NCBI GenBank assembly: GCA_027002475.1
Contig: JALWZS010000038.1
Coordinates: 46,032-110,031, forward strand
Origin: a bacterium
GTDB lineage: Bacteria; Patescibacteriota; 4484-211; GCA-002791395
Reading direction: 5' to 3'
Length of the DNA: 64,000 nt
Made by a program: the position numbers and the translations under genes. Of this stretch, positions 34,577 to 49,757 are shown piece by piece (the stretch's first letter is position 1; each line of letters begins with the position of its first letter). The notes below the pieces were generated by a model. It did not search any database. It saw nothing but the letters and a program-made list of their open reading frames with translations, and was not told where the DNA came from.

Positions 34577-35431
34577 CTAGTGCAAAGTATTTTTCCGGTA
34601 CCACTCGAACAAGAATTGACCTGCATAAAGGGCATACCCGCCAAACTGTTGCTTGGTAAACTCACGGTATTCTTGATACTTTAAGTTTCCTGATAAGCCG
34701 TAAAGATCTACTAATATTCGTTTTCCCCATACATCCATTGGCGTTACGTTCTCAAACCCTGCAGCAAATGCCAGTACGCAGTCCGCAATTTTATCTCCGA
34801 CTCCATGAAGTTTTAGTAACTCTTCTCTTAACTTAGTTTCATTCATCTGTAAATATCTTTCACTTAGTCGTTTTTCCGTTAGTAATTTGGCAGTTTCTTT
34901 TAAGTATTTTGCTCGAAATCCTACACTTGTTTTTTGTAGGTCTTTGATGCTAAGAGATGCAATCTTTTTAGCGGTAGGGAATAAATTGACCTTGCCTATT
35001 CCTGGAATATTTATCTTTTCTCCAAATAGCTTAGAAAGTTTCCTAACCGATCTTCGAATAGATTTTATATTGTTATTTGCAGAAATAATAAAAGTTAGCA
35101 CCGTGTAGTTAAACGGTTGTTTTAAGACTCTTATGTTAGGGTGTGTTTTTATGGCTTTCGCAATTATTGGATCTTGTTTGATAGTTTCAATTATTTTCAT
35201 ATAGTCTTTTTTTATTTGAAAGTACTCTTTTATAAAGCTAAGGTCGTTTTGTTTAGGATATGTTTGCCAATAAAGAGTATCTTTTGTTGGTCTAATGACG
35301 ATAGCATTGGTGTCTGTTGTTCCAAGGTAAGTTTTATTATCAGACAATTTATCCCAGCTAAATGACTGTCCTCCAAGCAAGGTTAAGTCGTAATTGAAAT
35401 CGGTTAACGGAATTTTATTAAAGCTAGCCAT
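34577..35431 (-). CDS. HhH-GPD DNA glycosylase/AP lyase, Ogg-like (8-oxoguanine)
   Basis: 284 aa. HhH-GPD signature LKLHGVGDKIADCVLAFAAG...TPMDVW (Lys and Asp catalytic pair). Abuts the HD gene with no gap, so likely an operon. Confidence 0.7.
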   Translation of the reverse strand: MASFNKIPLTDFNYDLTLLGGQSFSWDKLSDNKTYLGTTDTNAIVIRPTKDTLYWQTYPKQNDLSFIKEYFQIKKDYMKIIETIKQDPIIAKAIKTHPNIRVLKQPFNYTVLTFIISANNNIKSIRRSVRKLSKLFGEKINIPGIGKVNLFPTAKKIASLSIKDLQKTSVGFRAKYLKETAKLLTEKRLSERYLQMNETKLREELLKLHGVGDKIADCVLAFAAGFENVTPMDVWGKRILVDLYGLSGNLKYQEYREFTKQQFGGYALYAGQFLFEWYRKNTLH

Positions 35432-35464
35432 AGTTTTTAATTATAGCGTTAAAAAGTAACTTGC

Positions 35465-35493
35465 TTGACAAGGGCGACGCTATGGGTTAGTAT
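35465..35493 (+). promoter_or_regulatory. Near-consensus sigma70 promoter (TTGACA-N17-TAGTAT)
   Basis: TTGACA at 35465-35470, 17-nt spacer, TAGTAT at 35488-35493. Drives the small ORF plus a structured ~250-nt leader upstream of the ABC transporter. Confidence 0.5.
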
Positions 35494-35522
35494 GCTTGCG
35501 CCCCATGATTACAAATAAAAAT

Positions 35523-35639
35523 ATGACAACAAAACAAATTAAACAATTAATAAGGGTTGAAGTGGCTGTAGCTACCTTAAGCCTTGCCTGCGCTGGCTAC
35601 TGTAGTCGGCACATACTTTCGGATCCGCCTCGTCATTAA
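35523..35639 (+). CDS. Hypothetical 38-aa small ORF (possible leader or precursor peptide) in the ABC-transporter 5' region
   Basis: ATG..TAA giving MTTKQIKQLIRVEVAVATLSLACAGYCSRHILSDPPRH. Begins ~25 nt after the predicted TSS. No clear SD. Followed by an 11-bp bulged hairpin (gtaccgacttgc-atta-gcaagcggtac at 35650-35676). Confidence 0.25.
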   Translation: MTTKQIKQLIRVEVAVATLSLACAGYCSRHILSDPPRH

Positions 35640-35741
35640 CCGGAAACTGTACCGACTTGCATTAGCAAGCGGTACGGCTAAACGGTCTTTTAAAACTAAA
35701 TATCTAGTCTTTTTTCCATATTTCACTCATAGGAGGCAGAA

Positions 35742-37490
35742 ATGTCTGCAATTCGTGCTTTACTCGAGGTTTTTGCTGTCTTTTGGGACATCGTCAAATC
35801 GGTCAGGAGGAGTTTCTACTTTTTCTTTGTACTGATTGTTGTCTATCAAGTGGTGAGTATCGTTGATACGTATGTACTAACATACTCAATCGAGTTTGTC
35901 GGCAAGCATAACGATTGGCAAAGTATTGCTGTTCTCGTTTTGGCGGTATATCTGTTTGACGAGTTTTTCAATCGTTATGACAACTACGTGGATTGGATAA
36001 TTATCATCAAGATTCTTAATCCTATCTACGTATACGTTAAGAAGATGACGCTAGATAGGTTTCTTAGCATGGACTTGTCTTGGCATCATCGCCAACGCTC
36101 TGGAGACCTTTTAACACGTGTTCAGCACGGAATCGACAAGCTGGACTCCATGGCGAACGACATTAGCTGGGAGTTAGCACCGACATTAGTTCAGTTCGTG
36201 CTCTCACTGGCTCCTCTCCTGTGGTTCAGCCCAATCTCGGCAGGGATTCTTGTTCTTTCGCTGCCGCTCTTTTTGCTGTTGTCCGTAAAAAAGCACAGGG
36301 CACAAAAGGAGCTACGCAAAGTTCGACACGACCACTACGCAGAAACTGGAGCGATTGCAATGGAGGCAGTAAACCACATCTCTACTGTTCAACTGTATTC
36401 GTTGCAAGAGCGCTTCATGGGCATGCTTAAAAACTCTCTTCAGATAATCACTGACGCGTTAACGAAAGAGGTTCATCTCGGGATCTATCGCTATGGTCGC
36501 TGGCAAAACCGCATTACGACGTGGGCTAAGCGCGCTGTAATGTTTCTTCTGATCTTACAGGTTCAACGTGGCGAAATAACCTTAGCTCAAGTGATCTTCC
36601 TCTGGGCAATTGTGGAAAAGCTTGTTCACTCGTTTTGGCGATTTGGTAGGTTGTATGACCATGCAGCCGATTCGTCGGAGGCGATATCAAGACTAGCTAA
36701 AATTCGTGATCTTAACTCCGGGATTAGTGTAGGTTCGCGCAATGCGCTTCCTGAGGACAAAACGCTTGAGCTTAACGGTGTTTCCTTTGCTTATAACGGT
36801 GGGGGCGACGCCTTAACTAACGTAACTTTTGGCTTCCAAGCAGGTAAGAGTTATGCCCTGATTGGTCCTTCTGGGGCAGGCAAATCAACGCTTGTTAAGC
36901 TTTTGATGCGCCTTATTGAGCCAACGCAGGGTGTTGTTACTCTCGGCGGAATCGATGTTAAAGAGTTTGGGCTTGAGAGCTTACGCTCTCTTTTCGCTGT
37001 TGTTGAGCAGGAGCCACCTGTAATCAATGACACGATTGCAGCAAACATTGCCTTGGGTAGTAGGAATGCTTCGTTTACTCAAATTGTAGCAGCGGCAAAA
37101 GCAGCCGACTTGCACGGTACGATTGAAGCGATGCCTGAGGGTTACGACACGAACGTTGGCGAGCGTGGTGTCCATCTATCTGGAGGACAAAAGCAACGTC
37201 TTGCAATCGCTCGTGCCTTTTTGCGAGATGCCCCGTTTCTGGTACTCGATGAACCTACCTCCGCATTGGACTCAGTTACGGAGAAGCGCATTCAGGAAAC
37301 TCTCAACGCCTTTCTAACTGACTCCGCAAAGACGGTCATAATCATTGCCCATCGCCTCTCTACAATTCGACATGTGGACGAGATAATCGTTTTGGACAAC
37401 GGGCGGGTTGTAGAGCAAGGCTCTCACAAAGAGTTACTTGCCCGTGGTGGTCTTTATGCCACTATGTGGTATGAGCAAGTAGGAGATTAG
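35742..37490 (+). CDS. ABC transporter, fused permease/ATP-binding protein (exporter type)
   Basis: 582 aa. N-terminal 6-TM domain with no C39 peptidase domain. Walker A GPSGAGKST, signature LSGGQKQRLAIARAF, Walker B LVLDEPTSALD. SD ggagg upstream. GC content visibly higher than the neighbours. Confidence 0.85.
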   Translation: MSAIRALLEVFAVFWDIVKSVRRSFYFFFVLIVVYQVVSIVDTYVLTYSIEFVGKHNDWQSIAVLVLAVYLFDEFFNRYDNYVDWIIIIKILNPIYVYVKKMTLDRFLSMDLSWHHRQRSGDLLTRVQHGIDKLDSMANDISWELAPTLVQFVLSLAPLLWFSPISAGILVLSLPLFLLLSVKKHRAQKELRKVRHDHYAETGAIAMEAVNHISTVQLYSLQERFMGMLKNSLQIITDALTKEVHLGIYRYGRWQNRITTWAKRAVMFLLILQVQRGEITLAQVIFLWAIVEKLVHSFWRFGRLYDHAADSSEAISRLAKIRDLNSGISVGSRNALPEDKTLELNGVSFAYNGGGDALTNVTFGFQAGKSYALIGPSGAGKSTLVKLLMRLIEPTQGVVTLGGIDVKEFGLESLRSLFAVVEQEPPVINDTIAANIALGSRNASFTQIVAAAKAADLHGTIEAMPEGYDTNVGERGVHLSGGQKQRLAIARAFLRDAPFLVLDEPTSALDSVTEKRIQETLNAFLTDSAKTVIIIAHRLSTIRHVDEIIVLDNGRVVEQGSHKELLARGGLYATMWYEQVGD

Positions 37491-37499
37491 AGTAGCCTA

Positions 37500-37534
37500 A
37501 GGGGTGTGTGCCTTAAGCGCACGCCCCTTTTTTC
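37500..37534 (+). terminator. Rho-independent terminator after the ABC transporter
   Basis: 12-bp stem aggggtgtgtgc/gcgcacgcccct (two G-U pairs), loop cttaa, followed by a T6 run. Confidence 0.65.
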
Positions 37535-37554
37535 ATTTGTATGAAGTAGAGTCC

Positions 37555-38256
37555 TTAGTTCAGATTATAAGTTTCTTCCCAGAAGATCTTCATGTTTGTT
37601 TGTACAAGGGCGTCTGTGTGGAAGATCGCATGAATGTTGTTTACTTTGATAGTACTGTGTATTTCCTGACTTAGGATACTCTCTAGCTCTTTGACTACAA
37701 TTGCAAAATCTACGTTTGGCGTTTGAATATCTCCAATAGTAAGATGTGCCTTAAAATTTTCAAATATTCGATAATATCCGTACCTGACCAGGAACTCTTG
37801 GTCTTTCTGGCTAAGTTCGTTGTTTTTGCACCTTATCAAATCCTTTTCGCGTATTTCGTTCGTATGAAACTTGTCTAATAAGTTGGTAAAAAGCATGTGC
37901 TTTTCTAATAGATTGGCACCTGTTACTGGTAGATAAACAAACCCATTGTCTTTAACTTCGATTCCGCCGATTTGCACCGTGAAAGCAGGCATATTGGAAA
38001 CAAGGCTTGTTAGTGCTTGCTGTACGTCTGTAAGGTGTGACTCTTTTAACGGTGTTATCGCATATGTTATATGAGGAGTCGGTGTGTTGTACGTACTGTT
38101 GTAGCGTTTAGCTAAAAATTCTTTGGCTTGTTTTATCCTGTCCTTATTAATCTTGGAAGCAATTGAAAAGACAGTATTTATGACATTAAGTTTCGTACCA
38201 TTAATAATTGCTTCTTCCATACGCAGGAGAATAACAAGTTCTAATTCGCAAGGCAA
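37555..38256 (-). CDS. 2H phosphoesterase family protein (LigT-like 2'-5' RNA ligase / cyclic phosphodiesterase)
   Basis: 233 aa with two H-x-T-x motifs (PHITYA and AHLTIG) at the spacing typical of the 2H superfamily. Confidence 0.5.
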   Translation of the reverse strand: MPCELELVILLRMEEAIINGTKLNVINTVFSIASKINKDRIKQAKEFLAKRYNSTYNTPTPHITYAITPLKESHLTDVQQALTSLVSNMPAFTVQIGGIEVKDNGFVYLPVTGANLLEKHMLFTNLLDKFHTNEIREKDLIRCKNNELSQKDQEFLVRYGYYRIFENFKAHLTIGDIQTPNVDFAIVVKELESILSQEIHSTIKVNNIHAIFHTDALVQTNMKIFWEETYNLN

Positions 38257-38318
38257 CTTTTTGCAATCGTATTTCTCACTGCCGGCTAGTTCTAACCGGC
38301 AGGACAGAAACAGACAAA

Positions 38319-39119
38319 CTACTCTAGGTATTTGTCGATGACTGCTTTAATGACAGCATACGGTTGTGCACCTACAACCATTTCTCCTTCAAACTCACCA
38401 GAATCTGTATTCTTACCGATGAAGAATGTAGGAGTGCCTGTAGCTCCATATTTTTGCGCGTCGGCAAGGTCGTTTTGGACCTCGTCTTTGTACTTCTCTG
38501 AGTCCAAACACTGCTTAAACTTATTTGCGTCAAGACCTAGGTCTTTTGCGATTGTGTACAACTCCGACTTTGGCATTCCATTTCCATTTGAGTTGGTTTT
38601 GTTAAATATCTCGTCATGATACTTAAAATATGTTTCGTCATCGCCTTGCTCGCGGGCACAGTTGGCAGCTATGGCTTCCTGTGTGGCTAGTGGATCATGA
38701 AACGAAAGAGGTAAGTCGCGATATACGTATCTTAATCTTCCTGTATCTATATAGTCGCTTTTGATTTGTGCAAAAGATTGCGTAAAGTACCGCTTACAGA
38801 AAGGACATTCGTAATCACTAAAATCCACCATTACTACTGGTGCATTTGTGTCACCAATGGCTGGGTCGTCGTCAACTGAGACAAGAACGTTTGTTGGCTG
38901 TTCTTGTTGTGGTGCTTGAGCATTGTTCCCTTGAGGTGCTTGATTGTTTGATGGTGTGGTTGTAGTGTTATTGGAATTAGCTCCATTAAGTCCGAAAAAT
39001 AATGCAACGGAGATAAGTACACCCGTTATAATTATTGCAATTGGTACGCCAAGAGCGTTATTCGGTGATGTTGCAGTGGTTTGTTGTGTGTTTGTTGTGT
39101 CTTCATTCATAGCCTTCAC
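38319..39119 (-). CDS. DsbA-like thiol:disulfide oxidoreductase, membrane-anchored with low-complexity linker
   Basis: 266 aa. N-terminal TM, Asn/Thr/Gln-rich linker (NNTTTTPSNNQAPQGNNAQAPQQEQ), thioredoxin fold with CPFC active site. Confidence 0.7.
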   Translation of the reverse strand: MKAMNEDTTNTQQTTATSPNNALGVPIAIIITGVLISVALFFGLNGANSNNTTTTPSNNQAPQGNNAQAPQQEQPTNVLVSVDDDPAIGDTNAPVVMVDFSDYECPFCKRYFTQSFAQIKSDYIDTGRLRYVYRDLPLSFHDPLATQEAIAANCAREQGDDETYFKYHDEIFNKTNSNGNGMPKSELYTIAKDLGLDANKFKQCLDSEKYKDEVQNDLADAQKYGATGTPTFFIGKNTDSGEFEGEMVVGAQPYAVIKAVIDKYLE

Positions 39120-39126
39120 CCCCTTT

Positions 39127-39903
39127 CTACTTGATAAAGTGAATAATTCGATCTTGTATGTTTATGGTTAAATCAAATGCACCAATTTTAGTGAGGAATA
39201 TGCTTAAGACGTTGATGTCCCGTGCCAAAAGAAATATTCCACCAATTGTTAAAAACAAAAGCCCAGATACAAACTGGGTGCTGTGCCATGCAAGTTTTTT
39301 GCTTCTAACATTAAAACTGATGGTTTTTCCAATTACGGTTTTTCGTATGAATGTGGAAGTGCGTAGGAACCAACTAATAAGTAGCAGTGGAATGAAAATG
39401 CCCATAATGTAAAACGATAAAAGAATGACCGCTATGTGAGTACTTTGAGTAGCTGCTGATAGGGTTAGGATTGCTCCGATTATCGGACCTGCACACGGGC
39501 TCGATCCAATGCCAGATATTATTCCCAGCAAAAAAGGTCCAGCGTGCTTTAGACCTTGTACGTTTTGGGCTTTGTTTAGTAGCCCAGATAGAATGGGAAT
39601 GTTTACGTGTTTTCCAATAAGGATGTAAACTCCTGCGGATATGAATACTAAACCTGTTAAGATTCCAACAAATGTGGGGTTTGGCCTAATCAATCGGGCG
39701 AGCGTTGCCGCTCCTAGTGCTAAGGGTATGTATATAATGGCAAGTCCCAGCGCAAACAAAAAAGTTGCCTGCAATAACTTTATTTTTCCATTGAAGGTGT
39801 AAGCAAAGTAGCTAGGGAGCACCATCGCCGTACAGGGCGAGAAAAAAGAGAGAGCGCCTCCTACAATGGAAATTATGGCAAGGAGAAGAACGGATGTAAA
39901 CAT
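39127..39903 (-). CDS. ccdA: Cytochrome c biogenesis/thiol-disulfide transporter CcdA (DsbD transmembrane domain)
   Basis: 258 aa, 6-8 TM. GGALSFFSPCTAMVLP motif with the conserved Cys pair. Confidence 0.75.
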   Translation of the reverse strand: MFTSVLLLAIISIVGGALSFFSPCTAMVLPSYFAYTFNGKIKLLQATFLFALGLAIIYIPLALGAATLARLIRPNPTFVGILTGLVFISAGVYILIGKHVNIPILSGLLNKAQNVQGLKHAGPFLLGIISGIGSSPCAGPIIGAILTLSAATQSTHIAVILLSFYIMGIFIPLLLISWFLRTSTFIRKTVIGKTISFNVRSKKLAWHSTQFVSGLLFLTIGGIFLLARDINVLSIFLTKIGAFDLTINIQDRIIHFIK

Positions 39904-39939
39904 AACTACTAAAGAGTTTAGTAGTTATGTTTGATTAGG

Positions 39940-40839
39940 TCAAGGGGCAGGCGTGTGGCATGCGGTATGTTTTGTACTGTTGAAAACATGAGTGTTGTTA
40001 GCAAACCCACCAATGCTGTTTGAAAAAACAACTAGTATAAGTGCAATAAGGACAAATGAAAGAAAAGCCTCCTTGCTAACCCTAGTTAGTTTGGCTACTT
40101 CTTCAGCATCGTTTGATACAAGCAATTCAACTCGTTCTTGTTGCATTGCACTAAATGCGACGAGGTGGGGTAAAGTATGTGTTGGGTTAGACAGTTTGGC
40201 GAGCGCGCAAAGAAGATGACGTTCGCCTACGTTTTTTATTGCAAAACTATCTGCCTCAAGCTCAATTGCAACAAGAAATGAATGCTCTATGCGAAAGAGG
40301 ACGTTTTTAATAAATGGAACCATTTTGAGTGGTAAGAGAAGTGCTTGCATAAGTAACGTTTTGAGTGATGCAAATGTTTTTGCATGATGTTGTTCGTGTG
40401 TTATGACACTAAGAAGTTCTTGTGTACTAAGTGAGTTTAGCAATGCGGACGATATGTAGATCGTAGGGCGAATAATCCCAGCACAATAAGAAAAAGGTTT
40501 TGTTGTGGGCACAACTTTTATTTTGTTTTTAATGGGTATGTTGAGGTTATTGTTTTCTGACATTTGGAGGAATGGCTTTGTTGGGATTTTTTGTGAGAGG
40601 GTTTTATATTTTAAGGCTTTGTATAACAAGTAAAAGGTGGCAGTCAGCAAGATGAAAACTAATGCTACTACTGTTAAGAACGTGGAGTATTCAGTTAGTA
40701 GTGTGTTTATTAGCGTTGTACATAATCGCAATGCTTCAGGGAATATATGTAATACTAGTTTGAGTAACTGCGCAACTAGTAAGCCTAGAAGCAGGTTGGT
40801 GCTAAATACTACAACTAACAAAAAAGTGCTTTTCGACAT
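39940..40839 (-). CDS. M56-family (BlaR1-like) membrane zinc metallopeptidase, sensor domain absent
   Basis: 299 aa, 4 TM. HEQHH (HExxH) zinc motif in the BlaR1/MecR1 arrangement. Directly downstream of the BlaI-like repressor. No extracellular penicillin-binding sensor domain. Confidence 0.65.
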   Translation of the reverse strand: MSKSTFLLVVVFSTNLLLGLLVAQLLKLVLHIFPEALRLCTTLINTLLTEYSTFLTVVALVFILLTATFYLLYKALKYKTLSQKIPTKPFLQMSENNNLNIPIKNKIKVVPTTKPFSYCAGIIRPTIYISSALLNSLSTQELLSVITHEQHHAKTFASLKTLLMQALLLPLKMVPFIKNVLFRIEHSFLVAIELEADSFAIKNVGERHLLCALAKLSNPTHTLPHLVAFSAMQQERVELLVSNDAEEVAKLTRVSKEAFLSFVLIALILVVFSNSIGGFANNTHVFNSTKHTACHTPAP

Positions 40840-40842
40840 GAT

Positions 40843-41211
40843 TTACAGTTTTGCGAGTTTAGAAATGAGTTTGTCCCTTAGATCCTTAGGAAGTCCTTCG
40901 ATCCCTGCAGCAAACTGATTTAGGGCTACTTCGCCAAACTGGTTAAAGAGCTCTTCTACCGTTAATGTAACTCGTTCTGTTGCAAATTGCTCTTTTGTAT
41001 GCTTAGGAGAATACACATACGCTTTGTTTCTTCTAGATCGAGTTAAGTGACCTTTCTTATAAAGGATATCTAGCATTGTCATCACTGTTGTGTATGCAAC
41101 CTTTTTCTTTTTCAGGAGGTTGTTTAGTACGTCTCGTACTGTGCTAGGACCTTGTTCCCATATTATTTCCATGATTTCTCGTTCGGCGTCGGTTAAATGG
41201 AGGGTTTGCAT
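40843..41211 (-). CDS. BlaI/MecI/CopY-family winged-helix transcriptional repressor
   Basis: 122 aa. LTDAEREIMEIIWEQGPSTVRDV...YTTVMTMLDILYKKGHLTR matches the penicillinase-repressor family. Confidence 0.75.
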   Translation of the reverse strand: MQTLHLTDAEREIMEIIWEQGPSTVRDVLNNLLKKKKVAYTTVMTMLDILYKKGHLTRSRRNKAYVYSPKHTKEQFATERVTLTVEELFNQFGEVALNQFAAGIEGLPKDLRDKLISKLAKL

Positions 41212-41299
41212 TTAACTACTATACCACATCGTAGCCTTTGGCTTAGATGCTTTATTATTAGTCTTGTGGGTTGGTCTAAGTTCTTGTACAATTTTAAAT

Positions 41300-42127
41300 A
41301 TGGAAGGTAGAGATAACGATAACCTTAAGGTAAACGCCGCACCAGAAGCCCAAAAAGATAACAGCAGGGAACAAGAAGAGAAAAAGCCATTTCCACTACT
41401 TTTAGTTATAGTAGCACTACTTGGTATCGCGGTTGTTGTAGGAGGTTTGTTTATATTAACCTCTAGCTCAAAAGATGAAACAGATTCTAACACTAGTGGT
41501 AAATCGCCGACTGTTGCAGTAAAGCCTTCTGATAGTGTGAAAGAAGAGGTTAAGCTACCTGAATACGAATCTGTTGGTAGTGCAAAGGCGTTAGACGAAA
41601 TTGTTAAGAGCGCACAGGAATGGGGCGGTGATGTTAAATTTGTAACTTGTTCAGGACTAGTTCTTCCCCACCGAGTGGGGGATGTTCAATACTACATCGG
41701 TGGCAATGACGGGACGTTCCCTTTATGGAGTTGTACTGTTTACTCTCCAAGTAAAAAGCAGGATACTGAAGTAGAGTGGTATAAAGGAACGGTTGAAGTT
41801 AAAGAACCTCATACAACTTGGGGTGCGCCAGGTGCCTCTGCTTATGAACAAGACCCAGATTCTAGGATATTTTATGATCCTGAGGTCTTTACTGATACGA
41901 CTACTTTAATCCCATTACTAAAGGAACAAGGAGTTGATTTCTCTAATGAATATATAACCTTTGCTTTTGGGTTCTACGGTGCGCAAAAAATATATAGCAG
42001 TAAACCAGTTTGGCAGGTAGACGTATATAGCCGAAACGAGAAGGACGACCCGACCGACAAGTATTCCCAGGGTAAAAAACTTAGAATGATTTTTATAGAT
42101 GGTCCATCTGGAGAGGTCTTAGACTAA
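41300..42127 (+). CDS. Hypothetical membrane-anchored exported protein
   Basis: Start chosen at MEGRDNDN (the table ORF starts 36 nt upstream). Charged N-terminus, one TM (LLLVIVALLGIAVVVGGLFIL), ~200-aa exported domain. No known domain. Confidence 0.45.
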   Translation: MEGRDNDNLKVNAAPEAQKDNSREQEEKKPFPLLLVIVALLGIAVVVGGLFILTSSSKDETDSNTSGKSPTVAVKPSDSVKEEVKLPEYESVGSAKALDEIVKSAQEWGGDVKFVTCSGLVLPHRVGDVQYYIGGNDGTFPLWSCTVYSPSKKQDTEVEWYKGTVEVKEPHTTWGAPGASAYEQDPDSRIFYDPEVFTDTTTLIPLLKEQGVDFSNEYITFAFGFYGAQKIYSSKPVWQVDVYSRNEKDDPTDKYSQGKKLRMIFIDGPSGEVLD

Positions 42128-42172
42128 AGCCCTCATCTGCCCCATTAAGTAGTGCGGTAAAATGTTTCTCTT

Positions 42173-42920: not shown

Positions 42921-44351
42921 TTACTTTACTTGAACAACGGTCATCATTCCTGCTTCAGCATGTTCAAGTATGTGACAATGATTTACCCAATCTCCCTTAT
43001 CTAATGGGACCAACCCTAACTCAACCGACTCCTTTGGACCTAGTAGTACTGTGTCTCTGAAAAAGCCTTCATCATACGGAGCTCCGTTTTTAGTTAACAC
43101 CTTGAAAAACTGCCCATGCAAATGCATTGGGTGTAGCCTTGAAGACCTATTCACAAACTTTATTTTGTTAAACTGATTGTAAGTTAGCGTGACTGGATCG
43201 TAGTCTGGGAACGCCTTGCCGTTAATTGTCCACTCGATTCCGTATTTGCCTCCCCGTCTTGCGTCAAGCGTATATGTCTTGTCTGTAGCGACTTGTGTTG
43301 CCTCGCTCCAGTCAGGGACATTTGGATTTGTTGGGTAGCTAAAGTTTGGAGTTTCAACAGGATCCCCTTCTACTCTAATTTTGCCTAAGACATTTGCTTT
43401 CTTTGTAAAAATATCAGTTACTTCGTACTCGCCCTTGTCTTGTGGCAGTGTTATGTCGACGTCGAGGCGATTACCTGGTGCTAGGTAAAAACCGTTTGGG
43501 TCAAAGGTTTTCTTCACGTACATACCATCTACAGCAATGGCAGTAGCACTAAGTTTCGGAAAGTTTAAAAGATACACGCGCCCGTTAGACGTATTTACTA
43601 ATCTAAGTCGTATCCGTTCTCCTGGGCGAGCTGTTATTGTCTCCTGGGACTTTCCGTTAACTGTTATCAGGTTACCCCATCGGCCATCGTGCATTAAGTC
43701 ACGGATGGTGTTGAACTTCGAGTAAACTTGTGCATTTTCGTCTAAGAGCCAATCGTCTACCACCCAGACGATATCTTGGTTGTATTTGTCGCTATACTCG
43801 TCTTCAACTATAAGAGTACCGAATAAGCCTCGTTCAACTTGTTCGCTGGATCTTACGTGAGGATGAAACCAGAAAGTTCCTGCGTCCTTAGGTATGAAGT
43901 CGTATGTGAAGGAGCCTCCTGGTTGAACGGGGTCCTGTGTGACTCCCGGTACACCATCCATTGCATTAGGTACTCGTACTCCATGCCAGTGAACGGTTGT
44001 TTCTTGAGGAAGTTCGTTTCTGAATTTTATCTTTACTCTGTCGCCTAGTTTGATTTGTATGCTAGGACCTGGAACGGATCCATTGTAATTCCAAACTTTT
44101 GTTTTATAACCATCGACTATGTCTACTTCACCCTCACTAGCAGTGAGTTCCAGTTCTATGACATTACCACTTGGGGTGACATCTTTTGTGTATGCCTTGC
44201 TAAATTCTTCCCTTAGTTTTTCTTTTGTGGAGGGTGAAACGCTGGGATGCTCTGTAGTTTTTTGATAGGTGATAATTGCAAATAACGACAGCAGCGCTAT
44301 AACTCCGATTAGTATTATTAAAATATTTGATTTTATAAATAACTTATGCAT
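42921..44351 (-). CDS. Multicopper oxidase (laccase/CueO-like), membrane-anchored
   Basis: Start taken at MHKLFIKSNILIILIGVIALLSLF (the table ORF extends to 44489). Copper-binding motifs HWHG and HCHILEHAEAGMM. Three cupredoxin domains. Confidence 0.8.
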   Translation of the reverse strand: MHKLFIKSNILIILIGVIALLSLFAIITYQKTTEHPSVSPSTKEKLREEFSKAYTKDVTPSGNVIELELTASEGEVDIVDGYKTKVWNYNGSVPGPSIQIKLGDRVKIKFRNELPQETTVHWHGVRVPNAMDGVPGVTQDPVQPGGSFTYDFIPKDAGTFWFHPHVRSSEQVERGLFGTLIVEDEYSDKYNQDIVWVVDDWLLDENAQVYSKFNTIRDLMHDGRWGNLITVNGKSQETITARPGERIRLRLVNTSNGRVYLLNFPKLSATAIAVDGMYVKKTFDPNGFYLAPGNRLDVDITLPQDKGEYEVTDIFTKKANVLGKIRVEGDPVETPNFSYPTNPNVPDWSEATQVATDKTYTLDARRGGKYGIEWTINGKAFPDYDPVTLTYNQFNKIKFVNRSSRLHPMHLHGQFFKVLTKNGAPYDEGFFRDTVLLGPKESVELGLVPLDKGDWVNHCHILEHAEAGMMTVVQVK

Positions 44352-44534
44352 GTTTTTAAACGTACTTACTATACCATATAGTAGATGCGAAGTGTCACTA
44401 CATAGCGTAGGAATAAGCTTTAGGAATATGACTAGCTTAAAATATGTCTGGTTTTGACTGAAGAAATGCAATAACCGTTTTTGCCACAACGCTAGTTTGA
44501 GGTGTTTGTTCTGTTTGAAATTTGTTTTTTGAGC

Positions 44535-44611
44535 TTGGTCGGGGTGGTGGGACTTGAACCCACGACCTCACGGCCCCCAGCCGTACGCGCTAGCCGTCTG
44601 CGCCACACCCC
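44535..44611 (-). tRNA. tRNA-Pro (anticodon GGG)
   Basis: Manual fold of the reverse complement: acceptor CGGGGTG/CACCCCG, U8, D-stem GCGC/GCGC, anticodon stem TACGG/CCGTG with loop C-U-GGG-G-G, T-arm GTGGG-TTCAAGT-CCCAC, discriminator A, encoded CCA. Confidence 0.8.
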
Positions 44612-44654
44612 GATGCTTTAACGATTATACAACCTTTTAGGCTATAATTGACCA

Positions 44655-45164
44655 ATGCAAGAGGTGGATATAAATAAGATTAAGGTCTTAGCGGATTTGC
44701 ATAAGAAACACGGTAAGTCTTGGCATTTTCATATCTTAACCCCGCAGTGTTTGTTAAACACCGTCAAAAAATATGCTCTTATTCTTGAAAGCCTAACAGA
44801 TAACGAAACTCACGTTTGTTACTCAGATGAACCTTATATAGAGGTTGGGGCAGAGCTTGCAAAGCTCTTGCAGGATACGACTACTCCTAGCACTCCTGGC
44901 GAAAACGTAGATATCTCAATGGAATTATCAGATGCTATTAAACCAATTCTAAAAAGAGCAAATGAGCTGACTAACCAAAAAACTCCGTGGCACTATCATT
45001 TGCTTACGCCTGATTGTGCCCTTAATGAAGATAAGGGGAAGTGGGTAATTATCCTTGAAGACAATGGGAATGATGAGGTTCTTAAGGCTAAATACGATAA
45101 AGAACCTAAGTTTGACTTAGCTGCGCTGGAGTTACTCTTTTACCAACAAAAGAAGTCCTCTTAA
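44655..45164 (+). CDS. Hypothetical protein with internally duplicated ~60-aa domain (W-H-[FY]-H-[IL]-L-T-P-x-C ... IILE)
   Basis: 169 aa. Repeat 1 KSWHFHILTPQCLLN...YALILESLTDNE. Repeat 2 TPWHYHLLTPDCALN...KWVIILEDNGNDE. Conserved His/Cys suggest metal or nucleotide binding. Confidence 0.5.
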   Translation: MQEVDINKIKVLADLHKKHGKSWHFHILTPQCLLNTVKKYALILESLTDNETHVCYSDEPYIEVGAELAKLLQDTTTPSTPGENVDISMELSDAIKPILKRANELTNQKTPWHYHLLTPDCALNEDKGKWVIILEDNGNDEVLKAKYDKEPKFDLAALELLFYQQKKSS

Positions 45165-45213
45165 AGTCAAAATATACTCCCGATTTTTTAGTTAACGTGT
45201 TATCTTAAGTCAA

Positions 45214-45762
45214 GTGCCATACGATTTGCTTGATGTACTAAAACGTTATAAGGCCTTTGATGATAACGAAGCTTTAATGCTGGCTAAATTTATTAATTTT
45301 TTATCTTCAGGAGAAAACCACTTTGACAGAAGCCGGTTAGATGGACATGTTACTGGTTCAGCTTGGGTGCTAGATAAGTCTAAAGAATATGCTTTATTAA
45401 CACATCACTTGAAGTTAGATAAATGGTTGCAGTTGGGGGGACATTGCGATGGTAATAAAGACGTGCTTAACGTTGCTTTGACTGAGGTTAGGGAAGAGTC
45501 TGGGTTGAAGTCGGTTCGAGCCATAACAAATGCGGTGTTTGATATTGACGCGCATCGTATTCCCGTAAGGAACAATGTTCCTGCGCACTTTCACTATGAT
45601 GTGCGTTTTTTACTTGAGGCAGATAAAAATGAGACAATTAAGAAGCAAGATTTGGAGTCGAAAGAAGTCCGTTGGGTAAAGTTGCAAGATATTGAAAAGC
45701 TTGCCCCCTACGAAAGCGTAATGCGAATGGTGCGAAAATCGATGCATAATAATTGGGGCTAG
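45214..45762 (+). CDS. NUDIX hydrolase
   Basis: 182 aa. Nudix box GGHCDGNKDVLNVALTEVREESGL. Confidence 0.7.
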   Translation: MPYDLLDVLKRYKAFDDNEALMLAKFINFLSSGENHFDRSRLDGHVTGSAWVLDKSKEYALLTHHLKLDKWLQLGGHCDGNKDVLNVALTEVREESGLKSVRAITNAVFDIDAHRIPVRNNVPAHFHYDVRFLLEADKNETIKKQDLESKEVRWVKLQDIEKLAPYESVMRMVRKSMHNNWG

Positions 45763-45835
45763 ATCCGCAGTTCTAGCCAGTTAAGAATAGTTTACTCGGT
45801 ATGAATTTGTGCTATAAAGTCAATAACACTAGTGC

Positions 45836-45912
45836 GAGTCCGTAGCTCAGTTGGCTAGAGCGTTCGGGTCACATCCGAAAGGTCGCTGGTTCGAATCCAG
45901 CCGGACTCACCA
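45836..45912 (+). tRNA. tRNA-Val (anticodon CAC)
   Basis: Manual fold: acceptor GAGTCCG/CGGACTC, U8, D-arm GCTC-AGTTGGCTA-GAGC, anticodon arm TTCGG-G-U-CAC-A-T-CCGAA, T-arm GCTGG-TTCGAAT-CCAGC, discriminator A, encoded CCA. Confidence 0.85.
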
Positions 45913-45926
45913 ATTCGTACATAATT

Positions 45927-46901
45927 ATGATTATTAACGATAGAATTCACGGCGAGATTACAGTAAAAGAGCCCGTAATTGAAAGGCTTTTACAGACCAA
46001 ACCACTCGTTAGGCTTAAAGGTGTTAGTCAAGACGGAGCCCCACACTTCATTCAACCCAGAAGAAACGTTACTCGCTTTGAGCATAGTGTCGGTGTATGG
46101 TACTTATCAAATCGTTTTAATCGCCCGATTGAAGAACAAATTGCCTGTTTAATCCACGATATCCCACATACTGCCTTTTCACATGTAGCTGATTTCGTTT
46201 TTCCTAACGAAAAGCACGAATTCCACGACAGCTTTTTAACGGAAGTGGTCTTAAAGTCTGAAATACCTGCTATTTTAAAAGAACATGGAATTGATGTTGA
46301 TAATGTTTTGGATAAGGGACGATTCCCTTTGTTAGAAAACGAACTGCCAGATATCTCTTTTGACCGATGGGATTATTTTATGAGGGACGGTTATATGATC
46401 GGATTTTTGCCAAGAAAGACAATTAAACTTTTTATGGGAAGTATGTTTATAGAAAACGAACAGATTTTCTTTGTCGATGAACGAATTGCATCAATGTTTG
46501 CAATTTTATTCGTAAACTTCTCAAGGCTTATTTGGCTCGATCCTGTGTCTCATGCTAGTTTTTTCTTGCTAGCAGAAGCTGTAAAGGCGGCGATTCAAGA
46601 AGGGGTGATAGGTATGGAAGATCTGTTTTTAGTCGATGAAGACGTATTGAAAAAACTTAAGGCTTCAAATAATGAGCGTGTTAACTCATTCCTTAAGCGG
46701 TTAAAACCAGGGGAGGAATTTATTTATGTGCCAAAGGGTGAAGCAGAATTTTACGGACCCAACAAGCTAAGGTTTGTAGATCCTTTGGTTAAAAAGGATG
46801 GGGAACTTAAACGAGTTAGTGAGATTGTTCCAAGTTTGGGGTATTACTTTAAAGAATTAAAGGATAGGTACTCAATGATTGGCGTAAAGCAAGTGACATA
46901 G
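45927..46901 (+). CDS. HD-domain metal-dependent phosphohydrolase
   Basis: 324 aa. FEHSVGVW...LIHDIPHTAFSH (H...HD...H) signature. Confidence 0.65.
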   Translation: MIINDRIHGEITVKEPVIERLLQTKPLVRLKGVSQDGAPHFIQPRRNVTRFEHSVGVWYLSNRFNRPIEEQIACLIHDIPHTAFSHVADFVFPNEKHEFHDSFLTEVVLKSEIPAILKEHGIDVDNVLDKGRFPLLENELPDISFDRWDYFMRDGYMIGFLPRKTIKLFMGSMFIENEQIFFVDERIASMFAILFVNFSRLIWLDPVSHASFFLLAEAVKAAIQEGVIGMEDLFLVDEDVLKKLKASNNERVNSFLKRLKPGEEFIYVPKGEAEFYGPNKLRFVDPLVKKDGELKRVSEIVPSLGYYFKELKDRYSMIGVKQVT

Positions 46902-47879: not shown

Positions 47880-49757
47880 CTATTTGCTTTGTATCGGGAT
47901 TACTACGAACGTTGGGACTTCGTCGATGCCATCTATAAATAAAGAGTCAGTTAATGGGATGGCTTCTTGAGACACTTCTCCACCTCCTTGATATCGGATT
48001 ATAGATGCCAAGTCTTGATTTAGTGCGGTTTTGGCTCGTAACGAAGCGATTTGTATGTCAACATGGTTACTATCTATGCCTGGTATCTTGTTGTTCCATA
48101 TGGCAAGAATTAAGTTGTCATGCTCTCGGAACGCCAAGCAGTGTGTTTCTTGGTTTCCAGTGTTTATATAACCAAGAGGTTCGGTCTCAGTTGTTAACAG
48201 GCGTTTATTTATGCGGGCTAACGTTTGGAATAATGGTGTGGGTTGGGTTTTATCTATGAGGTTATAGTCGTAATCGCCCTCGGCACTAAGTTGCCACCAG
48301 GCAGTAGGCAAGGCACTTGCTTTATGGATTAATATTGTTTGTAGGGCATACGCCTGCATTCTCATTTGAGCTATTGCCTCAAACTCCTCACCCGAAACTT
48401 CGATATTTAACTTGACAAGTTCACTTTTAAGTCTTCGACGAATGTCCGATATGCTATAGCCCATTTCTCCTGCGATTACGAACAAATCAGGGTTAGCATT
48501 GTTAACGACCGTAAACAAGTGACGTAGCTCGTCCATATAAGTTCCATGCTCTGACCACTTTGATGGTTGCCCATAATTGTCTGGTGTGGATATCTCTCTT
48601 ATTGTAAATCTGCCGGTACGATTTGGGTGTTTGTTGTCCAAATCTGCACGCCACGTCGGTCCTGGTTCAGTTGGTTTTGCATATCCTTTGTATGGATGCA
48701 CGGATACGAACTGGATAATGTCTGCAATTTTGTGGCCGTTTGCTGTTTGAGTCTGCAATATCTCCTTAATGTAATCTGTATCTACAAAAGCTACATCAAT
48801 CCCAATTGTGGGTGTAGGGTAGTCTTTGCCTGTATCACTAAGCTCGCGTTTGTGTCGACGTAAACTCTCGGCGACAGTTCCTACTAATCTTGCGTAATGC
48901 TCTGGTACACGTCCTTCACTTGTAAACTGTCCTGATCGTGTTTCGTCTAAAATTATTCCATGGTCCGCTGTGTTAAAGTTTGGTTCGTTCCATATAGATA
49001 GAACTGCATTAGGGTAGCGTTCATAAATTATTTTTGCATACTCGACAAACGCTTCAATTTCTGCGTCTTCTGTGGGGATATGATACTCAGTTGGGACTTC
49101 TTCGTTTGTGTACTCAACTGTACCGTCTTCGCGTTTTACTGCTTTTAATGTGGAGTTTGTTTTTTTATTACCGTTTGAGTCTTTGTATTCTACTAAGCCT
49201 GGTCCCAGCGAGATTTCAAGATATGCGTTGGCTTCATTTATAAGATGATATAGTTCGTCTATTAGTTCTAATAATTCATTTGTTTGTGCTTTGTCATTAA
49301 GTAAAATGTTGGAGATTGATAAAGGACCGTTTTCGAAGTGAATCCGTACGTATCTAGGATGTAGCTCTTTTGCGGTACGTAAACGCTCTATTTCTTCGTT
49401 TATCCTCATCTTGGCAAGTCGTTGCGCTACTTCAGCTAGAATCCTTGGGCGCTCAGTAGGCTTTTCTGTAAAGGTTTGTATCTCCTCTGGTGTGGCTAAT
49501 TGGTTTGATGATGCAAGTTGCATGAGCGTTTCTGGCGGGATTGATTTCATGCGCTCTAGATACTCTTGGGCTGAGTGGCTTCCTAATCGAATGTTTACGC
49601 CATGTAGAAATTTTTGAGTCCTGGCTGGTTGAGGGGCGGGCTCTAATGTGTCATGAGATACTACGAGCTCGAAGGGGTGGTTTATCGAGGCTTCGTTTTC
49701 TGTGCCACCAAGAGTTTTCACTATTCGATTATATCGAAACCGGTGTGCTATTATCAC
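47880..49757 (-). CDS. Clan GH-A (GH5-like) glycoside hydrolase family protein, apparently cytoplasmic
   Basis: 625 aa with no signal peptide. LSIWNEPNF (acid/base NEP) and VIAGEMGYS (nucleophile) motifs. Upstream of and co-directional with the GT2 gene. Confidence 0.55.
   Translation of the reverse strand: MIIAHRFRYNRIVKTLGGTENEASINHPFELVVSHDTLEPAPQPARTQKFLHGVNIRLGSHSAQEYLERMKSIPPETLMQLASSNQLATPEEIQTFTEKPTERPRILAEVAQRLAKMRINEEIERLRTAKELHPRYVRIHFENGPLSISNILLNDKAQTNELLELIDELYHLINEANAYLEISLGPGLVEYKDSNGNKKTNSTLKAVKREDGTVEYTNEEVPTEYHIPTEDAEIEAFVEYAKIIYERYPNAVLSIWNEPNFNTADHGIILDETRSGQFTSEGRVPEHYARLVGTVAESLRRHKRELSDTGKDYPTPTIGIDVAFVDTDYIKEILQTQTANGHKIADIIQFVSVHPYKGYAKPTEPGPTWRADLDNKHPNRTGRFTIREISTPDNYGQPSKWSEHGTYMDELRHLFTVVNNANPDLFVIAGEMGYSISDIRRRLKSELVKLNIEVSGEEFEAIAQMRMQAYALQTILIHKASALPTAWWQLSAEGDYDYNLIDKTQPTPLFQTLARINKRLLTTETEPLGYINTGNQETHCLAFREHDNLILAIWNNKIPGIDSNHVDIQIASLRAKTALNQDLASIIRYQGGGEVSQEAIPLTDSLFIDGIDEVPTFVVIPIQSK

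What the first reader, a model, noticed from the sequence alone, without database searches (positions are those of the whole stretch)
44535..46901. tRNA-Pro / tRNA-Val-flanked islet encoding a tandem-domain WHxH-LTPxC protein, a NUDIX hydrolase and an HD phosphohydrolase
Between tRNA-Pro (minus) and tRNA-Val (plus) lie a 169-aa protein built from two copies of a ~60-aa module and a NUDIX enzyme, and an HD-domain phosphohydrolase sits just beyond tRNA-Val. The two module copies share W-H-[FY]-H-[IL]-L-T-P-x-C-x-LN...(I/V)ILE. I do not recognise this domain. Paired His and Cys residues suggest metal or nucleotide binding. NUDIX and HD enzymes recur in nucleotide-signalling and anti-phage contexts, and tRNA genes are common integration sites. 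No integrase is present, so this may be a degraded or very compact islet.
Basis: partly seen in the sequence, partly recalled or inferred. Interest (0 to 1): 0.5.

Follow-up and report, generated by a model that had tools for sequence, protein, structure and literature searches.

The report
Unannotated His/Cys protein in variable tRNA region
The 169-residue protein belongs to a real, conserved and so far unannotated family found only in uncultivated bacteria and archaea, probably a small metal-binding protein, but its NUDIX and HD neighbours are chance neighbours in a gene-turnover hot spot around two tRNA genes, not parts of a defence or signalling island.

Summary
This includes tRNA-Pro(-), a 169-aa tandem-module ORF ("X"), a NUDIX gene, tRNA-Val(+) and an HD gene.

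X defines a small family of 213 clusters at 50% identity. It has no Pfam, NCBIfam, PADLOC, PDB or viral match. It was found only in metagenome-assembled genomes: CPR bacteria, DPANN archaea, and some Acidobacteriota, Chloroflexi and others. Each module is predicted to fold as alpha-beta-beta-beta-alpha. Each module carries a near-invariant W-H-x-H...C...N...E set (97-100% conserved).

The NUDIX/HD partnership is not supported. NUDIX follows X only in the sister genome. HD is replaced by an unrelated gene even there. Neighbours in about 80 loci are heterogeneous.

No integrase or att repeat was found, and composition is normal. The locus is nevertheless a gene-turnover hot spot. The tRNA-Pro-X-NUDIX block is 95% identical to the sister genome, against about 80% for the core, which indicates recent recombination.

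Two unexpected associations emerged:
- tRNA genes lie directly upstream of X in six lineages.
- A single-module form sits between pheS and pheT in 11 archaeal loci.

Copper-related neighbours occur in four lineages.

Best guess: X is a cytoplasmic metalloprotein, possibly linked to translation. Its function remains open.

The parts
44536..44612 (-). tRNA-Pro (anticodon GGG). It is divergent from X with a 42-nt spacer, and its 3' end faces the multicopper oxidase gene.
   Evidence: ARAGORN; Rfam RF00005 at 60.4 bits; sequence.
44655..45164 (+). Gene X, 169 aa. It is the founding example here of an unannotated family built from two alpha-beta-beta-beta-alpha modules (residues 1-74 and 88-169) joined by a disordered linker (residues 75-84).
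   Evidence: ORF; 37 homologues; 213 clusters at 50% identity; AF2 model with pLDDT 87.6 and pTM 0.78; no Pfam or NCBIfam match.
44721..44759 (+). Module-1 signature W23-H24-F25-H26-I-L-T-P30-x-C32-x-L-N35. It occupies strand beta1 and the beta1-beta2 loop. E45 on beta2 completes the conserved set.
   Evidence: Alignments A1 and A5. Conservation: H24 1.00, H26 1.00, C32 0.99, E45 0.99.
44988..45026 (+). Module-2 signature W112-H113-Y-H115-L-L-T-P119-x-C121-x-L-N124, with E135 on the next strand. Most relatives have WHHHMLFPxCxFN here.
   Evidence: Conservation: H113 0.97, H115 0.97, C121 1.00, E135 0.98.
45214..45762 (+). NUDIX hydrolase, 182 aa, 49 nt downstream of X on the same strand. Its Nudix box is divergent: GHCDGNKDVLNVALTEVREESGL. 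This pairing with X is specific to this lineage.
   Evidence: Pfam PF00293; PDB 3fcm at E=4e-20; adjacent to X only in the window and L001.
44495..45738 (.). Block comprising tRNA-Pro, X and most of NUDIX. It is 95% identical to sister genome L001, while flanking core genes are 78-88% identical. This indicates recent recombination or exchange.
   Evidence: blastn. Third-codon-position identity is 0.89-0.90 here against 0.53-0.78 for 15 flanking genes.
45836..45912 (+). tRNA-Val (anticodon CAC). Its 3' end faces the HD gene.
45927..46901 (+). HD-domain protein, 324 aa, resembling SAMHD1/dNTPase at its N-terminus. It starts 15 nt after tRNA-Val. It is a variable cassette, replaced in L001 by an unrelated 237-aa gene.
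   Evidence: Pfam HD; PDB 2hek at E=1.9e-14 and SAMHD1 at about 1e-11; replacement in L001.
42921..44489 (-). Multicopper oxidase on the 3' side of tRNA-Pro. It is a variable cassette, absent from L001.
   Evidence: Pfam Cu-oxidase_3, Cu-oxidase_2 and Cu-oxidase; absent from L001.

Best explanation
The finding combines two separate things.

**(1) Gene X.** X encodes a member of a real, previously unannotated family. The basic unit is a module of about 75 residues, predicted to fold as alpha-beta-beta-beta-alpha. The module exists on its own in DPANN archaea, where it presumably forms a homodimer. In this window it appears as a fused pseudo-dimer.

Each module presents His-x-His on strand beta1, a Cys and an Asn in the following loop, and a Glu on beta2. 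I infer that these residues form one metal site per module, or one composite site between modules. The metal would be a transition metal, with Cu or Zn most likely. X would then be a small acidic cytoplasmic metalloprotein, either a metal-handling or buffering protein or a metal-dependent enzyme or sensor.

Expression of X is often coupled to translation genes: tRNA genes lie directly upstream, or the gene sits between pheS and pheT.

**(2) The 'islet'.** It is not an integrated element or a functional X-NUDIX-HD module. It is a flexible hot spot around two tRNA genes in a compact genome. Single genes are gained, lost or replaced there between close relatives (MCO, HD and others). The tRNA-Pro-X-NUDIX block was recently exchanged by homologous recombination.

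**What is shown and what is inferred.**
- Shown: the family exists and is conserved, the predicted fold, the lack of conserved NUDIX or HD partners, the absence of island hallmarks, the recombination signature, the tRNA adjacency and the pheS-X-pheT arrangement.
- Inferred: metal binding, which metal, and any role in translation.
For: **Family**
- 37 homologues at 39-49% identity.
- 213 clusters with E<=1e-3 among 1.84 billion representatives. Almost all are stand-alone proteins of 155-185 aa.
- 67 genomic loci, all from metagenome-assembled genomes.
- The single-module form is homologous at 99.7% hhalign probability.

**Site**
- H24, H26 and C121 are 100% conserved. C32 and E45 are 99%. H113, H115 and E135 are 97-98%.
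- His content is about twice the typical level (median 8 per protein). Median pI is 5.8.

**Fold**
- AF2 model with pLDDT 87.6 and two alpha-beta-beta-beta-alpha modules.

**Metal-related context in four lineages**
- CsoR, then a CopB-like P1B ATPase (CPH motif, His-rich N-terminus), then X 43 nt downstream in L011.
- CutA1 then X with an ATGA overlap in L089/L064.
- CopA and DsbA upstream of X in L022.
- MCO plus BlaI-M56-CcdA-DsbA beside X in the window.

**Translation coupling**
- A tRNA gene lies within 150 bp upstream of X in 7 of 69 loci, against 7 of 724 other genes (Fisher p=6e-5).
- pheS-X-pheT with abutting or overlapping stop and start codons in 11 loci.

**Hot spot**
- Presence/absence differences from the sister genome.
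- Third-codon-position identity of 0.89-0.90 against 0.53-0.78.
- This matches the behaviour of 'additive flexible genomic islands' at tRNA genes, where cassettes stay more similar than the core (PMC4898812).
Against: - Metal binding rests on residue identity and weak context only. Copper-related neighbours occur in only about 4 of 75 lineages, and most neighbours are unrelated small enzymes such as GNAT, SDR and methyltransferases.
- No model coordinates were available, so I could not verify that His, Cys and Glu converge in space.
- A Cys/His/Asn set could equally be a metal-free catalytic centre.
- In the window itself the MCO is absent from the sister genome that keeps X.
- The low synonymous divergence could in principle reflect selection on the RNA rather than recombination. 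However, ribosomal-protein genes do not show it.
Confidence: 0.4

Rival explanations
1. X is a translation-associated factor. It would bind RNA, tRNA or an aminoacyl-tRNA synthetase, using an alpha-beta-beta-beta-alpha module of the same topology as SRP9/14, eL38 and dsRNA-binding domains. It would be co-expressed with tRNAs in bacteria and with PheRS subunits in Aenigmatarchaeota-like archaea. The His/Cys site could be structural, or could act catalytically on an aminoacyl or adenylate substrate.
For: - Foldseek's best matches are tandem dsRBD proteins and the SRP9/14 fusion, with E between 0.007 and 0.04.
- tRNA genes lie immediately upstream in six independent lineages, with a different tRNA each time.
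- No att repeats explain these adjacencies.
- The single-module form sits between pheS and pheT in 11 loci with coupled stop and start codons.
Against: - The fold scores are low and the topology is very common. Sequence identity to the matches is 7-13%.
- The family is acidic (median pI 5.8), unlike SRP9/14, eL38 or dsRBDs.
- The conserved residues are His, Cys and Glu, not Lys or Arg.
- Tandem-module members are never next to pheS or pheT.
- The pheS-X-pheT arrangement may be a single ancestral event in one archaeal lineage.
Confidence: 0.2
2. X is a metal-free Cys/His enzyme, for example a thiol-dependent hydrolase, deamidase or transferase acting on a small molecule. Cys would be the nucleophile, the His pair would act as the base, and Asn or Glu would orient them. 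There would be two active sites per pseudo-dimer.
For: - Cys, two His, Asn and Glu are invariant in each module.
- Neighbours are frequently small detoxification or accessory enzymes: glyoxalase, cupin, isochorismatase, SDR, GNAT, PNPOx.
- X is a stand-alone gene, as is typical for single-component enzymes.
Against: - No fold or sequence similarity to any known Cys/His enzyme family was found.
- A 75-residue module is small for an enzyme.
- No substrate-related gene is conserved nearby.
Confidence: 0.12
3. One reading: X, NUDIX and HD form a compact, possibly degraded, tRNA-integrated islet. It would act in nucleotide signalling or anti-phage defence.
For: - X and NUDIX are co-oriented, 49 nt apart, with no terminator-like site between them. 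They are inherited together at 95% identity.
- One relative (P0044) carries a weak HD-like N-terminal extension, with E=0.0022, below the Pfam cut-off.
- The region varies between close relatives.
Against: - The NUDIX neighbour is found only in the window and its sister genome. HD is replaced even there.
- No PADLOC hit for any of the three proteins.
- No viral relatives.
- No integrase, no att repeats, and normal composition.
- Both tRNA 3' ends face outward from the X-NUDIX pair.
Confidence: 0.04

Closest known systems
SRP9/SRP14 Alu-binding proteins and ribosomal protein eL38 (alpha-beta-beta-beta-alpha fold)
   Different: - Foldseek's TM-score for the two-module arrangement is only 0.35.
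- X is acidic rather than basic.
- The WHxH...C...E signature has no counterpart in these proteins.
Tandem dsRNA-binding-domain proteins (Loquacious-PB, R2D2)
   Same: They also have two alpha-beta-beta-beta-alpha modules joined by a flexible linker. They are the top Foldseek PDB matches, with E between 0.007 and 0.02.
   Different: - The matches are not significant (no match with E<=0.001) and TM is 0.23.
- No Pfam dsrm match was found in 144 family members.
- X has no conserved basic RNA-binding motifs.
Vicinal-oxygen-chelate (glyoxalase/bleomycin-resistance) paired modules
   Different: - The VOC module is beta-alpha-beta-beta-beta, and its His ligand lies on a strand that X lacks.
- No Pfam Glyoxalase match was found.
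- The ligand set in X includes Cys.
Additive flexible genomic islands at tRNA hot spots (described for Alteromonas, PMC4898812)
   Same: Close relatives differ by single cassettes at the same site next to tRNA genes. A shared cassette (tRNA-Pro-X-NUDIX) is far more similar than the core genome.
   Different: No partial tRNA direct repeats, integrase or integron were found here. The host is a small-genome uncultivated bacterium. The cassettes are single genes.

Membership tests
tRNA-targeted integrative genomic island | Integrase or recombinase gene at one end | tested here: not met
   No integrase or transposase domain was found in any sizeable ORF between 35.7 and 50.5 kb.
tRNA-targeted integrative genomic island | Direct repeat of the tRNA 3' end (att site) at the far border | tested here: not met
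   The 22-nt 3' ends of both tRNAs are unique in the 64-kb window at up to 3 mismatches. No repeat in the region involves them. The same holds in five other tRNA-adjacent loci.
tRNA-targeted integrative genomic island | Cargo lies on the 3' side of the tRNA and is absent from close relatives | tested here: not met
   X and NUDIX lie on the 5' side of both tRNAs and are present in sister genome L001. Only MCO and HD lie on the 3' sides and are absent or replaced in L001.
tRNA-targeted integrative genomic island | Atypical base composition | tested here: not met
   GC is 0.38-0.40 and GC3 is 0.35-0.39 for X, NUDIX and HD. The window GC is 0.41 and neighbouring genes are similar.
Additive flexible genomic island / tRNA hot spot | Different cassette content at the same site in close relatives, with tRNA gene(s) at the site | tested here: met
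   MCO, HD and the 6.7-kb block 35427-42152 are present only in the window. Genes of 286, 237, 409 and 420 aa are present only in L001.
Additive flexible genomic island / tRNA hot spot | Shared cassettes more similar than the core genome | tested here: met
   Block 44495-45738 is 95% identical at nucleotide level, with third-codon-position identity 0.89-0.90. The 15 flanking genes show 0.53-0.78.
Known anti-phage defence systems (PADLOC models) | Match of components to defence-system HMMs | tested here: not met
   X, NUDIX and HD gave no PADLOC hits at E<=0.1.
Known anti-phage defence systems (PADLOC models) | Components co-occur across genomes | tested here: not met
   Neighbours at positions +-1 and +-2 in 69 loci are heterogeneous. 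The window-type NUDIX is found only in the window and L001.
NUDIX hydrolase superfamily (ORF 45214-45762) | Pfam NUDIX domain above the gathering score, and a Nudix box GX5EX7REUXEEXGU | tested here: met
   PF00293 scores 33.1 bits against a cut-off of 21.1. The box GHCDGNKDVLNVALTEVREESGL keeps the E-U-x-E-E-x-G-U core, but has K in place of the first E and T in place of R (read from the sequence). The substrate is unknown.
HD phosphohydrolase, SAMHD1/dNTPase-like (ORF 45927-46901) | HD domain above the gathering score and similarity to dNTP triphosphohydrolases | tested here: met
   PF01966 scores 25.6 bits against a cut-off of 22. PDB matches are 2hek (E=1.9e-14) and SAMHD1 (E about 1e-11), over the N-terminal 90-160 residues only. 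Enzymatic activity cannot be tested with these tools.
SRP9/14 / eL38 fold class (for X) | alpha-beta-beta-beta-alpha topology | tested here: met
   AF2 secondary structure is H-E-E-E-H, twice.
SRP9/14 / eL38 fold class (for X) | Significant structural or sequence similarity, and a basic RNA-binding character | tested here: not met
   [not shown]
dsRNA-binding domain, VOC/glyoxalase, HIT, 2H phosphoesterase (for X) | Match to the family profile | tested here: not met
   None of 144 family members matches any of these Pfam families at E<=1. No PDB sequence match was found with a profile.

The most novel reading that the evidence does not exclude
X is a previously unrecognised metal-dependent accessory factor of the translation apparatus. 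In Aenigmatarchaeota-like DPANN archaea the single-module form would be a third component of the PheRS operon, acting for example as a subunit, a fidelity or editing factor, or an aminoacyl-adenylate or Ap4A-related factor. In CPR and other bacteria the fused form would be co-transcribed with tRNA genes.
Probability: 0.12. Interest if true: 0.7.

Novelty: new variant of a known kind. Interest (0 to 1): 0.35.

Why it matters
The family is restricted to uncultivated lineages, mainly CPR and DPANN, whose biology is inferred almost entirely from annotation.

A small protein with 97-100% conserved His/Cys/Glu residues is a concrete and cheap target for biochemistry. Two further features add to its value: it occurs both as a single module and as a fused pseudo-dimer, and it is repeatedly placed beside tRNA or PheRS genes. 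Testing it could reveal a new metal-handling or translation-linked function in minimal genomes.

The locus also gives a clear example of single-gene turnover and cassette exchange around tRNA genes in a candidate-phylum genome, without recognisable integrases.

The specific idea of a NUDIX/HD signalling or defence islet can be dropped.

Tried and rejected
- **Family and profile searches for X.** Pfam, NCBIfam, PADLOC and PHROGs gave nothing. The only hit was a 26-residue PHROG match at E=0.005. Scanning 144 members individually at E<=1 gave only scattered noise, the most frequent being HepT-like_2 in 7 members with best E=0.036.
- **PDB searches.** A single-sequence search and a profile search both gave nothing.
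- **Viral origin.** No relative was found in IMG/VR.
- **Conserved partner gene.** All-against-all clustering of 681 neighbouring proteins, plus Pfam scans of the +-1 and +-2 neighbours, found no partner. The exception is pheS/pheT in one archaeal lineage. A recurring 101-aa membrane protein follows X in 4 loci, but these appear to be close relatives.
- **Methyltransferase neighbours.** They are not one family.
- **att repeats.** None in the window and none in five other tRNA-adjacent loci.
- **Motif-level ideas from memory.** I considered the HIT triad, the 2H HxT motif, the JAMM HxH...S..D motif, the peroxiredoxin TPxC motif and cupredoxin-type sites. I rejected each because of fold, spacing or the lack of any profile match.
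- **SRP9/14 replacement in archaea.** I judged this unlikely because X is acidic and has no conserved basic residues.
- **Literature.** Searches for the motif and for pheS/pheT in DPANN found nothing.
Full report

Yes. ARAGORN and Rfam place tRNA-Pro(GGG) at 44536-44612 (-) and tRNA-Val(CAC) at 45836-45912 (+). Between them lie ORF X (44655-45164, 169 aa) and a 182-aa ORF (45214-45762). A 324-aa ORF (45927-46901) starts 15 nt after tRNA-Val.

Pfam confirms NUDIX for the 182-aa ORF and HD for the 324-aa ORF, both above their gathering scores. It finds nothing for X, and NCBIfam also finds nothing.

The two halves of X align at E=3e-10. The WHxH..TPxC signature occurs only twice in the six-frame translation of the window, both times in X.

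**2. What X is**

*A real family.*
- X has 37 homologues at 39-49% identity, plus a 96% sister.
- An exhaustive profile search of 1.84 billion representatives finds only 213 clusters. Nearly all are stand-alone proteins of 155-185 aa.
- A scan of one genome per species found 67 loci, all in metagenome-assembled genomes. They come from:
  - CPR bacteria (Microgenomates, Gottesman-, Roizman-, Woese-, Dojka- and Saccharibacteria);
  - DPANN archaea (Woese-, Micr-, Aenigmat-, Nano- and Iainarchaeota);
  - some Acidobacteriota, Anaerolineae, Bdellovibrionota, Actinobacteria and Obscuribacterales.
- Several MAGs are labelled 'Gammaproteobacteria'. That label looks doubtful, because the gene next to X in one of them (L009) is nearly identical to the corresponding gene in a Microgenomates contig (L007).
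- No cultured organism and none of 2.9 million viral contigs carries the family.

*Predicted structure.* AlphaFold2 gives pLDDT 87.6 and pTM 0.78. It predicts two alpha-beta-beta-beta-alpha modules joined by a disordered linker.

*Single-module form.* Proteins of 75-85 aa exist in Aenigmatarchaeota-like archaea. They are homologous to X at 99.7% hhalign probability. The tandem protein is therefore a fused pseudo-dimer.

*Conservation.* Across 144 representatives from clusters at 50% identity:
- H24, H26 and C121 are 100% conserved.
- C32 and E45 are 99% conserved.
- W23, W112, H113, H115, P119 and E135 are 97-98% conserved.
- N35 and N124 are 89% conserved.

*Similarity to known families.*
- No Pfam family recurs among 144 members, even at E<=1.
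- The PDB gives nothing by single sequence or by profile.
- Foldseek finds nothing with E<=0.001. Its top matches are tandem dsRBD proteins and the SRP9/14 fusion. BFVD gives nothing significant.

The topology is therefore common, but the family is not a recognisable member of any described family.

**3. Is X tied to NUDIX or HD?**

No. I clustered 681 neighbouring proteins from 69 loci and scanned the +-1 and +-2 neighbours against Pfam. The neighbours are heterogeneous: GNAT, methyltransferases, SDR, glyoxalase, cupin, hydrolases and ABC transporters.

- The window-type NUDIX follows X only in the window and in sister genome L001.
- NUDIX-box genes of any kind lie within 2.5 kb in 5 of 68 loci, about the chance level.
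- The HD gene is replaced by an unrelated 237-aa gene in L001.
- One relative (P0044) has an HD-like N-terminal extension, but it falls below the Pfam cut-off and is a single case.
- None of the three proteins hits a defence model.

**4. Is it an island?**

Not in the classical sense. There is no integrase or transposase between 35.7 and 50.5 kb. There is no copy of either tRNA 3' end anywhere in the window. There is no compositional anomaly. Both tRNA 3' ends face away from the X-NUDIX pair.

The comparison with L001 is still informative. L001 shares gene order with the window at about 80% nucleotide identity.
- The window alone has a 6.7-kb block (35427-42152), the MCO and the HD gene.
- L001 alone has four other genes. 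None of them has a homologue in the 64-kb window.
- The segment 44495-45738 (tRNA-Pro, X and most of NUDIX) is 95% identical between the two.
- Third-codon-position identity is 0.89-0.90 for X and NUDIX. It is 0.53-0.78 for 15 flanking genes, which include nine translation and transcription genes.

The simplest reading is recent homologous exchange of this block within a gene-turnover hot spot. This behaviour has been described for tRNA-associated 'additive flexible genomic islands' (PMC4898812), although here there are no tRNA-repeat scars.

**5. Clues to function**

(a) *Residue chemistry.* Each module presents His-x-His on a beta strand, with Cys, Asn and Glu nearby. Both modules keep this set, and so does the single-module form. 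This is the signature of a metal site or a catalytic site.

(b) *Protein character.* The family is acidic (median pI 5.8) and His-rich. This argues against a generic RNA-binding role.

(c) *Metal-related context.* It recurs, but weakly:
- CsoR and a CopB-like ATPase immediately upstream of X in L011.
- CutA1 overlapping the start of X in L089/L064.
- CopA and DsbA upstream of X in L022.
- MCO plus BlaI-M56-CcdA-DsbA beside X in the window.

This amounts to about 4 of 75 lineages, which is suggestive but not decisive.

(d) *Translation context.*
- A tRNA gene lies within 150 bp upstream of X in 7 of 69 loci, representing six independent lineages. The tRNAs are Gln, Arg, Lys, Leu, Thr-Gly and Pro.
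- Only 7 of 724 other genes in the same loci have such a tRNA neighbour (Fisher p=6e-5).
- No att-like repeats explain these adjacencies.
- The single-module form sits between pheS and pheT in 11 loci. Stop and start codons abut or overlap there.

**6. Verdict**

The NUDIX/HD signalling or defence islet is not supported.

I commit to this reading: X is a small cytoplasmic pseudo-dimeric metalloprotein, most plausibly binding Cu or Zn, and often co-expressed with translation genes. It sits in a flexible, recombining hot spot around tRNA genes.
- The mechanistic part has a confidence of about 0.4.
- The negative conclusions about NUDIX, HD and an integrated island have a confidence of about 0.85.
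- A translation-factor role (0.2) and a metal-free Cys/His enzyme (0.12) remain open.

Interest is moderate. X is a clean, testable and unannotated family with two unexpected genomic associations, but no function has been demonstrated.

Noticed in passing
window 35427-42152: A 6.7-kb block that is absent from sister genome L001. It encodes an ABC exporter, a 2H/LigT-like phosphoesterase, DsbA, a DsbD_TM/CcdA protein, an M56 BlaR1-like protease, a BlaI-family repressor and a 287-aa protein with no Pfam match. A similar M56-DsbA-DsbD set lies upstream of CsoR-CopB-X in L011.
   Followed up: partly
window 42921-44489 (-): A multicopper oxidase lies directly on the 3' side of tRNA-Pro. It is absent from the sister genome, where VanY is followed by tRNA-Pro after only 420 bp. 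It behaves as a single-gene cassette.
   Followed up: partly
window 44613-44657: The spacer between tRNA-Pro and the start of X is only 42 nt. A perfect TATAAT (44643-44648) ends 6 nt before the ATG. This suggests a leaderless or near-leaderless mRNA. It also implies that the tRNA-Pro promoter overlaps the X coding region.
   Followed up: no
L066, L069-L072 (around 8001) and L077-L082: Single-module homologues of X (75-85 aa) are encoded between pheS and pheT in Aenigmatarchaeota-like archaea. Stop and start codons abut or overlap. A GlyRS-like class II synthetase gene often lies just upstream.
   Followed up: partly
L015 7587-8507 and L050 7612-8498: Two loci from different lineages share the same three-part arrangement: a small GIY-YIG nuclease ORF, then a tRNA (Gln or Lys), then X.
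   Followed up: no
L055 8001-9257: X is truncated at residue 146, next to two IS5-like transposase ORF fragments on the opposite strand. X here is preceded by tRNA-Thr and tRNA-Gly.
   Followed up: no
P0173, P0179; L086 285-953; L088 1-312: A subfamily of about 155 aa has the module order swapped: the WHHH-type module comes first and the WHFH-type second, and the linker is different. This suggests an independent fusion or a circular permutation.
   Followed up: no
L074 2966-4033 (P0044): A single 355-aa protein fuses a weak HD-like domain (Pfam E=0.0022, below the cut-off) to the N-terminus of a full tandem X. It is followed by a class I methyltransferase gene.
   Followed up: partly
L009 8564-8869 vs L007 2908-3213: The 101-aa membrane protein that follows X is nearly identical between a MAG labelled 'uncultured Gammaproteobacteria' and a Microgenomates contig. 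The Gammaproteobacteria and Pseudomonadales labels on several TPA MAGs that carry X are therefore probably wrong.
   Followed up: no
window 47880-49757 (-) and 41264-42127 (+): A 625-aa ORF and a 287-aa ORF have no Pfam match. The 625-aa gene occupies the position where L001 has an unrelated 409-aa HD_3 gene, which is another replacement at the same site.
   Followed up: no
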